In this document: positions 1-3,000 of the stretch, piece by piece
How the letters are laid out: the number at the start of each line of letters is the position of its first letter
Numbering within the stretch: position 1 is the stretch's first letter
DNA from: a virus
Taxonomy: Duplodnaviria > Heunggongvirae > Uroviricota > Caudoviricetes
Length of the DNA stretch: 20,762 nucleotides
IMG/VR virus record: IMGVR_UViG_2706794696_000002
Reading direction: 5' to 3' (one strand)
Position numbers: made by a program

Positions 1-3000
1 GGTTATCGCTCGCCACGGGAATATCTGCGGCAGCGGGCTTGTAATGGGTTAAGTGATAACAGATGTCTGGAAATATAGGGGCAAATCCAATCGTCGCCGT
101 ATTCCCGTATTAACAGAGACCGTAGCCCGACGGGGAACTCCTTCTGCGCGAGTGTGCGGGAATAATCAAAAACGATGCACACCGGGGTTACCGGGTACAC
201 ATATTTCATCATGCCAGCGAGTCCGGTTCTGGCACGGAAGAAACCGGACGTTATGATTTAGTGCGGAAATATTTGTGTAGTGTTCTGTATGTTCTCAGTA
301 AAGAGTAATGAATTATCAAAGGTATAGTAATACCTTTTGTTTTCGTGGATATTTGTAATCCATCTGAAAACCCCTGCTGTAGCAAGATTTTTCCTGTATT
401 CGTAAAATGATAACTCTCCTGATTTGAATCCTTTTAAGGTGGCTTCTATAAGGCATTTATTTTTTGAAAATCTTACATTTACAACCTTACCCTGTCCTTT
501 TATTAAAACCGTATTATCGTTTTCAAGAACAAGATGAATATTCTCTGTGGCTAAATAGTAAATGTAATGTGAGACATTGTGACGTTTTAGTTCAGAATAA
601 AACCAGTGATAGTTTAAATTATTTCGCACTTTATCGAATATTTGTTTAAAAATGGCAACCTGAGCCATTGTAGTACCTTCCATGTGATATGAGGGGGCGT
701 AGTCTGCACGATTATCTAAATTGCTTCAATCTGGTCTAACCTGTTTTCTGAGCAATTCAGTAATGTCACTCTTTTCTTTGTTTGCTTCAGGCGAAACTCT
801 TTTTTCTGAGCACAGTCTCCGGCGGCAGGCTTCAATGACCCAGGCTGAGAAATTCCCGGACCCTTTTTGAACAAGAGCGATGTTAATTTGTTCAATCATT
901 TGGTTAGGAAAGCGGATGTTGCGGGTTGTTGTTCTGCGGGTTCTGTTCTTCGTTGACATGAGGTTGCCCTGTATTCAGTGTCGCTGATTTGTATTGTCTG
1001 AAGTTGTTTTTACGTTAAGTTGATGCAGATCAATTAATACGATACCTGCGTCATAATTGATTATTTGACGTGGTTTGATGGCGTAGATGCACGTTGTGAC
1101 ATGTAGATGATAATTATTATCATTTTGCGGGTCCTTTCCGGCGATCCGACAGGTTACGGGGCGGAAGGCGCGCGGGTTTTCGCTATTTATGACAATTTTC
1201 CGGTTTAAGGCGTTTCCGTTCTTCTTCGCCGTAACCTAATGTTTTTATTTAAAACACCCCCTGAAAAGAAAGGAAACGACAGGTGCTGAAAACGGGCTTT
1301 TTGGCCTCTGTCGTTTCCTTTCTCTGTTTTTGTCCGTGGAATGAACAATGGAAGTCAACAAAAAGCAGCTGGCTGACATTTTCGGTGCGAGTATCCGTAC
1401 CATTCAGAACTGGCAGGAACAGGGAATGCCCGTTCTGCGAGGCGGTGGCAAGGGTAATGAGGTGCTTTATGACTCTGCCGCCGTTATAAGATGGTATGCC
1501 GAAAGGGATGCTGAAATTGAGAACGAAAAGCTGCGCCGGGAAGTTGAAGAACTGCGGCAGGCCAGCGAGACAGATCTCCAGCCAGGGACTATTGAGTACG
1601 AACGCCATCGACTTACGCGTGCGCAGGCCGACGCACAGGAGCTGAAAAATGCCAGAGACTCCGCTGAAGTGGTGGAAACCGCATTCTGTACTTTCGTGCT
1701 GTCGCGGATCGCAGGTGAAATTGCCAGTATTCTCGACGGGATCCCCCTGTCGGTGCAGCGGCGTTTTCCGGAACTGGAAAACCGACATGTTGATTTCCTG
1801 AAACGGGATATCATCAAAGCCATGAACAAAGCAGCCGCGCTGGATGAACTGATACCGGGGTTGCTGAGTGAATATATCGAACAGTCAGGTTAACAGGCTG
1901 CGGCATTTTGTCCGCGCCGGGCTTCGCTCACTGTTCAGGCCGGAGCCACAGACCGCCGTTGAATGGGCGGATGCTAATTACTATCTCCCGAAAGAATCCG
2001 CATACCAGGAAGGGCGCTGGGAAACACTGCCCTTTCAGCGGGCCATCATGAATGCGATGGGCAGCGACTACATCCGTGAGGTGAATGTGGTGAAGTCTGC
2101 CCGTGTCGGTTATTCCAAAATGCTGCTGGGTGTTTATGCCTACTTTATAGAGCATAAGCAGCGCAACACACTTATCTGGTTGCCGACGGATGGTGATGCC
2201 GAGAACTTTATGAAAACCCACGTTGAGCCGACCATCCGCGATATTCCGTCGCTGCTGGCGCTGGCTCCGTGGTATGGCAAAAAGCACCGGGATAACACGC
2301 TCACTATGAAGCGTTTTTCCAATGGTCGTGGCTTCTGGTGCCTGGGCGGTAAAGCGGCAAAAAACTACCGTGAAAAGTCGGTGGATGTGGCGGGTTATGA
2401 TGAACTTGCTGCCTTTGATGAGGATATTGAACAGGAAGGCTCTCCGACGTTCCTTGGCGACAAACGTATTGAAGGCTCGGTCTGGCCAAAGTCCATCCGT
2501 GGCTCCACGCCCAAAGTGAGAGGCACCTGCCAGATTGAGCGTGCAGCCAGTGAATCCCCGCATTTTATGCGTTTTCATGTTGCCTGCCCGCACTGCGGGG
2601 AGGAGCAGTATCTTAAATTTGGCGACAAAGAGACGCCGTTTGGCCTCAAATGGACGCCGGATGACCCCTCCAGCGTGTTTTATCTCTGCGAGCATAATGC
2701 CTGCGTCATCCGCCAGCAGGAGCTGGACTTTACTGATGCCCGTTATATCTGCGAAAAGACCGGGATCTGGACCCGTGATGGCATTCTCTGGTTTTCGTCA
2801 TCCGGTGAAGAGATTGAGCCACCTGACAGTGTGACCTTTCACATCTGGACAGCGTACAGCCCGTTCACCACCTGGGTGCAGATTGTCAAAGACTGGATGA
2901 AAACGAAAGGGGATACGGGAAAACGTAAAACCTTCGTAAACACCACGCTCGGTGAGACGTGGGAGGCGAAAATTGGCGAACGTCCGGATGCTGAAGTGAT

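What the first reader, a model, noticed from the sequence alone, without database searches (positions are those of the whole stretch)
1159..1170. Non-canonical cosN cohesive-end sequence
Flanking sequence matches lambda on both sides (…CGACAGGTTACG before, CGCGGGTTTTCGC… after), but the 12 nt between them read GGGCGGAAGGCG instead of the canonical lambda overhang GGGCGGCGACCT. That is 5 substitutions, all in the right half (positions 7-10 and 12). The terminase genes nu1 and A are otherwise lambda-like. This could mean a packaging-defective (cryptic) prophage, a terminase-tolerated variant with different cohesive ends, or a local sequence error near a repetitive GC-rich site.
Basis: partly seen in the sequence, partly recalled or inferred. 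Interest (0 to 1): 0.55.

Follow-up and report, generated by a model that had tools for sequence, protein, structure and literature searches.

The report
Natural variant lambda cohesive-end site
The lambda-type DNA-cutting site in this prophage carries a real, recurrent natural variant of lambda's 12-base sticky end, changed only in the half that the packaging enzyme is known to tolerate, so it is most likely an ordinary working cos site with different sticky ends, not a defect or a sequencing error.

Summary
Confirmed: window 1159-1170 reads GGGCGGAAGGCG where lambda has GGGCGGCGACCT (C7A, G8A, A9G, C10G, T12G). It sits in an otherwise lambda-identical cos: cosQ, both CG dinucleotides beside the nick sites, R3, R2 and R1 are all exact. 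It is not an error. The same 12-mer occurs at 166 places in 155 of 5,426 complete E. coli genomes, against 7,477 canonical places. It also occurs in 14 IMG/VR contigs, 4 metagenome contigs, about 46-kb plasmids of E. coli, Shigella and other Escherichia species, and the deposited phage PhiR46_1, an N15-like telomere phage with lambda head and tail genes. It sits on several terminase haplotypes. The window's closest non-clonal relative has canonical cosN, so the allele moves by recombination. All 11 distinct variant loci with lambda-type cosB keep intact nu1 and A. Feiss et al. 2015 report that cosN bp 7-12 tolerate mutation and vary naturally (N15, phiD326, Gifsy-1), because cosB-anchored TerL nicks the bottom strand with little sequence dependence. 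Best reading: a functional cosN allele giving ends 5'-GGGCGGAAGGCG / 5'-CGCCTTCCGCCC. These are self-compatible, but predicted to pair with lambda ends only through the six shared base pairs. It is a new member of a known kind, of modest interest.

The parts
1129..1135 (+). cosQ (GGGTCCT), the packaging-termination signal
   Evidence: Exact lambda 7-mer at the lambda spacing from cosN. Its role is from PMC4669245.
1157..1172 (+). cosN, 16 bp: the 12-bp cohesive-end sequence plus the conserved CG on each side of the two nick positions
   Evidence: CG^GGGCGGAAGGCG^CG. Both flanking CG dinucleotides are conserved. The 16-bp definition is from PMC9026076. 8 of 16 positions are two-fold symmetric, against 10 of 16 in lambda.
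1159..1164 (+). [quoted passage not shown]
   Evidence: Identical to lambda. All 14 IMG/VR variant loci keep GGGCGG when the left half is left free in the pattern.
1165..1170 (+). [quoted passage not shown] This is the variant allele.
   Evidence: It recurs in many independent records.
1176..1207 (+). Spacer between cosN and R3 (lambda bp 18-49), which holds the I2 bend region. One lineage-private A-to-C change at 1193.
   Evidence: Alignments. I2 spans about bp 18-50 according to PMC4856287.
1208..1223 (+). cosB R3, the critical TerS (Nu1) binding site (lambda bp 50-65)
   Evidence: Exact AGGCGTTTCCGTTCTT at the lambda distance from cosN. Extent and role are from PMC9026076.
1224..1266 (+). 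R3-R2 interval containing the IHF site I1. It carries 5 substitutions relative to lambda, most of them also seen in canonical-cos haplotypes.
   Evidence: Haplotype table.
1267..1282 (-). cosB R2 (inverted R sequence)
   Evidence: Exact AGAAAGGAAACGACAG.
1308..1323 (+). cosB R1
   Evidence: Exact CTGTCGTTTCCTTTCT.
1348..1893 (+). nu1, terminase small subunit (TerS), 181 aa
   Evidence: Full-length match to lambda Nu1 at 98.4%. Pfam Phage_Nu1, E = 2e-101. Its three substitutions are all common in canonical-cos phages.
1868..3793 (+). A, terminase large subunit (TerL), 641 aa, with ATPase and endonuclease domains
   Evidence: Full-length match to lambda gpA at 99.4%. Pfam GpA_ATPase and GpA_nuclease. 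T151S, D185E and T466I are common polymorphisms. L404R is private to this lineage.

Best explanation
This is a functional lambda-type cos site carrying a minority natural allele of cosN. Inferred mechanism, by homology with lambda: Nu1 dimers bind R3/R2/R1 of cosB with IHF bending at I1. This anchors gpA (TerL) on cosN. One TerL nicks the bottom strand between bp 12 and 13 (window 1170/1171) and a second nicks the top strand between window 1158 and 1159. Strand separation then gives 12-nt 5' overhangs, 5'-GGGCGGAAGGCG (left end) and 5'-CGCCTTCCGCCC (right end). All five substitutions fall in bp 7-12, the cosB-proximal half. There the anchoring of TerL by TerS makes nicking largely independent of sequence, so ordinary lambda terminase cuts this site. 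The ends are perfectly self-complementary and about as stable as lambda's, so cyclisation after injection is normal. The allele behaves as a tolerated marker that has spread by recombination among lambda-like prophages. It is especially frequent in lambda-headed, N15-like telomere phage-plasmids. Shown here: the sequence, its recurrence, its genetic backgrounds and the intact neighbouring signals and genes. Inferred: that it is actually cut, and at these exact positions.
For: (1) Every other defining cos element is exact lambda sequence at lambda spacing: cosQ, the left half GGGCGG, both nick-flanking CG pairs, R3, R2, R1. (2) The allele is widespread. It occurs at 166 places in 155 complete E. 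coli genomes, against 7,477 canonical places. It occurs in 14 IMG/VR contigs, 4 human-gut metagenome contigs, Escherichia sp. E1V33, and plasmids of E. coli, Shigella sonnei, E. albertii and E. fergusonii. A site that cannot be packaged should not spread across such different hosts and replicons. (3) It is present in a deposited phage genome, PhiR46_1 (host field ECOR13). This phage has a protelomerase and an annotated telL together with a full lambda head and tail module. (4) It needs no matching terminase. The window's TerL and TerS substitutions, apart from L404R, are common in canonical-cos phages. The closest non-clonal relative of the window's cosB-nu1-A segment carries canonical cosN, at 0.53% divergence. 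Other variant carriers have a different Nu1 C-terminal module. (5) All 11 distinct variant loci with lambda-type cosB have intact nu1 and A, against 24 of 31 canonical ones. (6) Literature (PMC4669245; PMC9026076): mutations in bp 7-12 have minimal effect. TerL-lambda nicks right-half variants efficiently. Lambda with cosN-N15 gives the same yield as wild type. Natural variation at bp 7-12 is 'common', while cosQ, the left half and the flanking CGs are conserved. This is exactly the pattern seen here. (7) Predicted self-duplex energy is -18.6 kcal/mol, against -19.0 for lambda.
Against: No experiment or read-level end mapping for this allele was available. Cutting at this exact sequence is inferred. 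Five simultaneous changes go beyond anything reported as tested in the texts I could read (two changes in N15, three in Gifsy-1). The changes include C10G and lower the two-fold symmetry from 10/16 to 8/16. The functional status of PhiR46_1 rests on GenBank record fields only; I found no paper. The window's own lineage has a private L404R change in the conserved GIDSQLDRYE motif of the TerL nuclease domain and a frameshifted lom. So this particular prophage could be impaired for reasons unrelated to cosN.
Confidence: 0.85

Rival explanations
1. The variant cosN is a loss-of-function lesion: terminase cannot nick it properly, and the prophage is cryptic and inherited only vertically.
For: Five of six adjacent bases are changed, and symmetry drops to 8/16. 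The window lineage also carries TerL L404R in a conserved nuclease motif and an 83-bp frameshifting deletion in lom. One variant locus (L141) is clearly a deleted remnant. The variant prophage in APEC E14033 has its capsid gene E interrupted by an island.
Against: The same allele sits on many divergent backgrounds and replicon types, in several Escherichia species and Shigella, and in a deposited phage genome. All 11 distinct variant loci with lambda cosB keep intact nu1 and A. The window keeps nu1 through M plus I and J at full length. The changed positions are those reported as tolerant. Canonical-cos loci show at least as much decay.
Confidence: 0.06
2. The 12-mer is a sequencing or assembly artefact at a GC-rich site.
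For: The window contains a 253-N run elsewhere, so the record is not pristine.
Against: The identical 12-mer is found in at least 155 complete E. coli genomes from unrelated projects, in IMG/VR, in metagenomes and in plasmid and phage records, with variable flanks. Four IMG/VR contigs from different isolate genomes are 100% identical to the window across the site.
Confidence: 0.01
3. The allele is not merely tolerated but maintained as a distinct cohesive-end compatibility type. Chromosomes that combine a variant end with a canonical end cannot cyclise efficiently. The allele would then limit productive exchange or co-packaging with the abundant canonical-cos prophages, and would mark a lineage, namely the lambda-headed telomere phage-plasmids.
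For: Predicted cross-pairing with lambda ends keeps only the 6-bp GGGCGG helix: -9.5 kcal/mol, against -18.6 for self-pairing and -15.2 for the viable lambda/N15 mismatch. A two-base mismatch already lowered yields about 10-fold in one configuration. The allele is discrete: no intermediates with 2 to 4 substitutions were found in IMG/VR or metagenomes, only rare single changes. It is 42-fold enriched on plasmid replicons (16 of 166 places against 19 of 7,477; Fisher p = 3e-18).
Against: After cyclisation a genome has a single cos, so recombinants simply inherit one allele and pay no lasting cost. The allele has in fact moved onto lambda-like backgrounds whose nearest relatives are canonical, which shows little barrier. 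Its frequency is only about 2%. The lack of intermediates is equally explained by a single old origin plus hitch-hiking. No fitness data exist.
Confidence: 0.08

Closest known systems
Phage lambda cos (cosQ-cosN-cosB; cohesive end GGGCGGCGACCT)
   Same: cosQ, the left half of cosN, the nick-flanking CG pairs, R3, R2 and R1 are identical, at the same spacing except for a 1-nt shorter R2-R1 spacer that lambda DE3 shares. Nu1 is 98.4% and gpA 99.4% identical.
   Different: bp 7-10 and 12 of the cohesive end are AAGG.G instead of CGAC.T. Two-fold symmetry is 8/16 instead of 10/16. The ends are predicted not to anneal stably with lambda's.
cosN of N15 and phiD326 (GGGCGGCGTCCG)
   Same: A natural lambda-like cosN with changes confined to the right half. 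It shares T12G. Lambda TerL cuts it with no yield loss.
   Different: Only 2 changes (bp 9 and 12) against 5 here. N15 also has a simple cosB and different flanks.
cosN of Salmonella phage Gifsy-1
   Same: A natural right-half variant differing from lambda at bp 8, 9 and 11 (PMC4669245).
   Different: Different positions and host. The sequence was not examined here.
Laboratory cosN point mutants (Xu & Feiss 1991; Hang et al. 2001, as summarised in PMC4669245)
   Same: They show that changes in bp 7-12 (for example C11G) have little or no phenotype, whereas the symmetric left-half changes (G2C) are deleterious. This explains why an allele like this one can persist.
   Different: Those are single engineered changes in lambda. 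This is a five-base natural haplotype, and I found no report of it being tested.
Rare single-step natural alleles found here
   Same: GGGCGGAGACCT (PhiR70_1, L145, L165), GGGCGGTGACCT (L140, L143), GGGCGGCAACCT (L151) and GGGCGGCGACCG (L053). All are right-half changes on lambda-like flanks.
   Different: Each has one substitution and is seen once to three times. The AAGGCG allele is the only multi-substitution allele and by far the commonest non-canonical one.

Membership tests
Lambda-type cos site (12-nt 5' cohesive ends) | [quoted passage not shown] | tested here: met
   7 of 12 positions are identical, and bp 1-6 are identical.
Lambda-type cos site (12-nt 5' cohesive ends) | Conserved 5'-CG-3' dinucleotides flanking both nick positions | tested here: met
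   ACG^GGG... and ...GCG^CGC. The conservation rule is from PMC4669245.
Lambda-type cos site (12-nt 5' cohesive ends) | cosQ heptamer upstream of cosN at lambda spacing | tested here: met
   GGGTCCT at 1129-1135.
Lambda-type cos site (12-nt 5' cohesive ends) | Complex cosB: R3 at bp 50-65, IHF site, inverted R2, then R1 | tested here: met
   Exact R3, R2 and R1 sequences at 1208-1223, 1267-1282 and 1308-1323. IHF binding itself was not tested.
Lambda-type cos site (12-nt 5' cohesive ends) | Adjacent Nu1-type TerS and gpA-type TerL genes | tested here: met
   Pfam Phage_Nu1, GpA_ATPase and GpA_nuclease. 98-99% identity to lambda.
Lambda-type cos site (12-nt 5' cohesive ends) | Partial two-fold rotational symmetry of the 16-bp cosN (10/16 in lambda) | tested here: inconclusive
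   8 of 16 positions are symmetric here. The G2/C11 pair and the flanking CG pairs are kept, the G3/C10 pair is lost and a C4/G9 pair is gained. No threshold defines membership.
Lambda-type cos site (12-nt 5' cohesive ends) | Terminase introduces nicks staggered by 12 bp, giving 5' overhangs in virion DNA | not testable with these tools
   This needs virion DNA end sequencing or in vitro cos cleavage.
Natural right-half cosN variants (N15, phiD326, Gifsy-1 class; Feiss et al. 2015) | Differences from lambda confined to bp 7-12, with cosQ and the left half unchanged | tested here: met
   The differences are at bp 7, 8, 9, 10 and 12 only.
Natural right-half cosN variants (N15, phiD326, Gifsy-1 class; Feiss et al. 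2015) | Carried by viable, transmissible phages rather than a single decayed copy | tested here: inconclusive
   The evidence is strong but indirect: wide distribution, intact terminase genes and a deposited phage genome. I found no published plaque or packaging data.

The most novel reading that the evidence does not exclude
GGGCGGAAGGCG defines a second cohesive-end compatibility type among E. coli lambda-like phages. It is self-compatible but effectively unable to cyclise with canonical lambda ends. It would have originated in, and be maintained by, lambda-headed N15-like telomere phage-plasmids. It would act as a partial barrier to, or marker of, genetic exchange and mixed-concatemer packaging with the canonical-cos prophages present in most E. 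coli genomes.
Probability: 0.1. Interest if true: 0.5.

Novelty: new member of a known kind. Interest (0 to 1): 0.25.

Why it matters
It mainly clears up a possible mis-annotation: a lambda-like prophage should not be called cos-defective because its sticky end is not GGGCGGCGACCT. About 2% of lambda-type cos sites in complete E. coli genomes, and nearly half of the plasmid-borne ones, carry this allele. Tools that locate cos sites or predict phage termini by matching the canonical 12-mer will miss them. The allele is also the most extreme natural illustration so far of the functional asymmetry of cosN described by the Feiss laboratory. It offers a ready-made natural substrate for testing how many mismatches cohesive ends tolerate during cyclisation. 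It is of practical relevance for cosmid or in vitro packaging work and for single-molecule uses of cos oligonucleotides with non-lambda phages.

Tried and rejected
(1) Small inversion as the origin of the change: the reverse complement of CGACCT is AGGTCG, not AAGGCG. Rejected by inspection.

(2) Co-evolved terminase: I looked for TerL or TerS substitutions exclusive to variant carriers. T466I is shared by all four first-examined carriers but also by 11 of 44 canonical ones. The Nu1 C-terminal mosaic is present in three carriers but absent from the window. Rejected.

(3) The idea that the allele is N15's cohesive end: N15 is GGGCGGCGTCCG. Rejected, although N15-like phage-plasmids with lambda heads do carry the allele.

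(4) An apparent L/K tail-gene defect (L aligned only to residue 196, 29 nt 'missing'): this is caused by a run of 253 N in the window, not a demonstrable deletion.

(5) The variant with a non-lambda cosB (L141) as evidence of use by a second terminase specificity: that locus is a deleted remnant lacking TerS, so I did not use it.

(6) A first attempt to count carriers with a 65-nt megablast query was not allele-specific, because the left flank alone gives a 28-mer seed. I replaced it with 43-nt queries whose every 28-mer spans bp 7-12.

(7) Literature: no paper in the searchable library contains the variant 12-mer in a phage context. I found no paper for the PhiR phage series. Casjens 2008 is not held.

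(8) The genome-contig scan with a 21-mer gave 8 chance hits in GC-rich genomes and one real hit, Escherichia sp. E1V33.

(9) Duplex stability as a sign of selection: the variant lies in the top 22% of all 4,096 possible right halves and lambda in the top 15%. This is not discriminating.

The asymmetry claim therefore rests on the literature plus the invariant left half in the 14 variant loci.
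Full report
**Observation.** Window 1159-1170 reads GGGCGGAAGGCG. It is preceded by ...GATCCGACAGGTTACG and followed by CGCGGGTTTTCGCTATTTATGA.... The 12-mer occurs once in the window. The canonical lambda 12-mer is absent even when 2 mismatches are allowed. The lambda reference NC_001416 begins GGGCGGCGACCTCGCGGGTTTTCGC. An alignment with lambda/DE3 and three close relatives shows an ungapped match in which the cohesive-end sequence differs at positions 7, 8, 9, 10 and 12 only. Background divergence from lambda is 2.5% over 14 kb. 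At that rate, five differences within six adjacent bases is expected about 0.001 times per window. The cluster is therefore a real local feature.

**Surroundings.** The rest of cos is exact lambda sequence:
- cosQ GGGTCCT at 1129-1135
- the CG dinucleotides on both sides of the two nick positions
- R3 at 1208-1223
- inverted R2 at 1267-1282
- R1 at 1308-1323

nu1 (1348-1893) and A (1868-3793) are full length, with 98.4% and 99.4% amino-acid identity to lambda. W, B, C, D, E, FI, FII, Z, U, V, G, H, M and I are full length at 94-100% identity, and J at 82%. Pfam confirms Phage_Nu1, GpA_ATPase and GpA_nuclease. The apparent truncation of L and K comes from a run of 253 N at 15174-15426. The window is 100% identical to four IMG/VR contigs from different isolate genomes.

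**Not an error, and not a one-off.** The identical 12-mer, with varying flanks, is present in the following:
- IMG/VR contig L093
- three E. coli chromosomes and a 46.9-kb plasmid that I read directly
- phage records YDC107_1 and PhiR46_1
- 16 PLSDB plasmids from E. coli, Shigella sonnei, E. albertii and E. fergusonii

For counting I used 43-nt queries built so that every 28-mer seed spans bp 7-12. The variant occurs at 166 places in 155 of 5,426 complete E. coli genomes, 150 chromosomal and 16 on plasmids. The canonical sequence occurs at 7,477 places in 4,132 genomes, 19 of them on plasmids. The variant therefore makes up about 2% of lambda-type cos sites. It is 42-fold enriched on plasmids (Fisher p = 3e-18).

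Six pattern scans of IMG/VR covered every non-canonical right half on these flanks. A seventh left the left half free on the variant background. They found:
- AAGGCG 14 times
- TGACCT twice
- AGACCT, CAACCT and CGACCG once each

No allele with 2 to 4 substitutions appeared. A metagenome scan added four more AAGGCG (three of them from records titled human gut) and one AGACCT. Among species-representative genomes, only Escherichia sp. E1V33 carries it.

**Genetic backgrounds.** PhiR46_1 (host field E. coli ECOR13) has an annotated telL, a TelK/TelN-type protelomerase, a large primase gene and cI, and a complete lambda Nu1-to-J module with the variant cosN. Plasmid pRHBSTW-00124_4 has the same layout. 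In strain APEC E14033 the allele sits in an integrated lambda-like prophage next to ybhC.

The terminase proteins of carriers are not special:
- The window's TerL substitutions T151S, D185E and T466I occur in 16, 23 and 11 of 44 canonical-cos phages.
- Its Nu1 substitutions are also common ones.
- Three other carriers share a distinct Nu1 C-terminal mosaic that the window lacks.

Over cosB-nu1-A, the window's closest non-clonal relative (L048, 0.53% divergence) has canonical cosN. The same holds for carrier L155. SNPs near cos that accompany the variant also occur with canonical cosN. The allele has therefore been exchanged by recombination among ordinary lambda-type packaging modules. All 11 distinct variant loci with lambda cosB and enough sequence have intact nu1 and A, against 24 of 31 canonical ones.

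**Mechanism.** Feiss et al. 2015 (PMC4669245) and Murialdo & Feiss 2022 (PMC9026076) describe the following:
- A second, symmetrically placed TerL nicks the top strand.
- The TerL nuclease has little intrinsic sequence specificity.
- Mutations in bp 7-12 have minimal effects, whereas symmetric left-half mutations are severe.
- Lambda carrying cosN-N15 yields as much phage as wild type.
- Natural differences at bp 7-12 are common (N15 and phiD326 at 9 and 12; Gifsy-1 at 8, 9 and 11), while cosQ, the left half and the flanking CG pairs are conserved.

I confirmed N15's end as GGGCGGCGTCCG. The present allele fits this rule exactly: only bp 7-12 change, C11 and everything under selection are kept, and T12G is shared with N15.

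I therefore infer that terminase nicks at 1158/1159 (top strand) and 1170/1171 (bottom strand). This would give ends 5'-GGGCGGAAGGCG and 5'-CGCCTTCCGCCC. Their predicted duplex energy is -18.6 kcal/mol, essentially lambda's -19.0. The cutting itself is inferred, not shown.

**Consequences and the more novel reading.** A variant end paired with a canonical end is predicted to keep only the six GGGCGG base pairs: -9.5 kcal/mol, against -15.2 for the lambda/N15 mismatch that Feiss et al. found viable but, in one configuration, about 10-fold reduced in yield. Chromosomes cut from mixed concatemers would thus probably cyclise poorly.

Three observations permit the idea of a second cohesive-end compatibility type centred on lambda-headed telomere phage-plasmids:
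- the weak predicted cross-pairing
- the discreteness of the allele
- its enrichment on plasmids

However, a cyclised genome has a single cos, and the allele has evidently moved freely onto canonical-type backgrounds. The data do not require selection. I give this reading about 0.1.

**Rivals.** The sequencing-error reading is excluded by recurrence.

A dead cos in a cryptic prophage is unlikely, given the distribution, the intact genes and the tolerant positions. Still, the window's own lineage has blemishes unrelated to cosN:
- a private L404R change (CTG to CGG at 3077-3079) in the GIDSQLDRYE motif of the nuclease domain, which is invariant in lambda and N15 and is Leu in 38 of 40 relatives
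- an 83-bp frameshifting deletion in the lom homologue
- a private A-to-C change at 1193 in the I2 region

Whether this particular prophage is inducible therefore remains open.

**Comparison and novelty.** The site meets every sequence-testable criterion of a lambda-type cos. The exception is two-fold symmetry, which falls from 10/16 to 8/16 and for which no threshold exists. Nicking itself cannot be tested here. The site belongs with the known natural right-half cosN variants, but it has more changes (five) than any described in the texts I could read. The 12-mer does not appear in a phage context in the searchable literature.

**Verdict.** This is a new member of a known kind, explained by published mechanism. 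It is useful for annotation and terminus-prediction tools and as a natural substrate for cohesive-end mismatch experiments. It would not surprise a specialist. Interest 0.25.

Noticed in passing
window 15174-15426: A run of 253 N masks the 3' end of tail gene L and the 5' part of K. The run is 29-30 nt shorter than the corresponding lambda and PhiR46_1 sequence, so ORF lists show a spurious 301-aa 'L' and a shortened K.
   Followed up: partly
window 3077-3079 (TerL codon 404): A private L404R substitution (CTG to CGG) in the GIDSQLDRYE motif of the gpA nuclease domain. This motif is identical in lambda and N15 and has Leu in 38 of 40 relatives examined. The change might impair cos cleavage in this prophage lineage, independently of cosN.
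   Followed up: partly
window 20201-20762: The Ail/Lom-family gene has an 83-bp deletion relative to PhiR46_1 and pRHBSTW-00124_4, between short CTGGCG repeats. This shifts the frame, so the last 15 codons of lom are read in another frame. It is a likely lom pseudogene.
   Followed up: yes
window 1193: An A-to-C change in the cosN-R3 spacer (lambda bp 35, I2 bend region). It is shared only with the window's near-clonal IMG/VR relatives and L093. One canonical-cos haplotype (L078) also has it.
   Followed up: partly
window 258-683 (- strand): A 141-aa DUF1398 protein (ydfO-like) lies upstream of cos. The sequence left of about 797 differs from the other variant-cos prophages compared, showing mosaicism at the prophage's right arm.
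   Followed up: partly
L125 (E. coli APEC E14033, NZ_CP126948.1) about 26400-37670: In this variant-cos prophage, the major capsid gene E is split by an ~11-kb island encoding an integrase, an Icd-like protein, a primase, SSB, its own major capsid protein and a head decoration protein. This looks like a capsid-encoding satellite inserted into its potential helper's capsid gene.
   Followed up: no
L131 (PhiR46_1), L132 (pRHBSTW-00124_4) and ~45-47-kb plasmid hits: A family of N15-like telomere phage-plasmids (protelomerase, telL, large primase) carries a true lambda Nu1-to-J structural module instead of N15's. They account for the strong plasmid enrichment of the variant cosN. Many are deposited as 'circular' plasmids.
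   Followed up: partly
L093 (IMGVR_UViG_2734482788_000004) about 879-885: This variant-cos relative has GGGCCCT instead of the otherwise invariant cosQ heptamer GGGTCCT. It is a possible termination-signal mutation.
   Followed up: no
L145, L165 and other haplotypes: Canonical or near-canonical cosN, together with the first ~33 bp to its right, is shared by at least four quite different downstream cosB/TerS types, including an N15-like TerS paired with a lambda-like TerL. This indicates a recombination hotspot just right of cosN.
   Followed up: no
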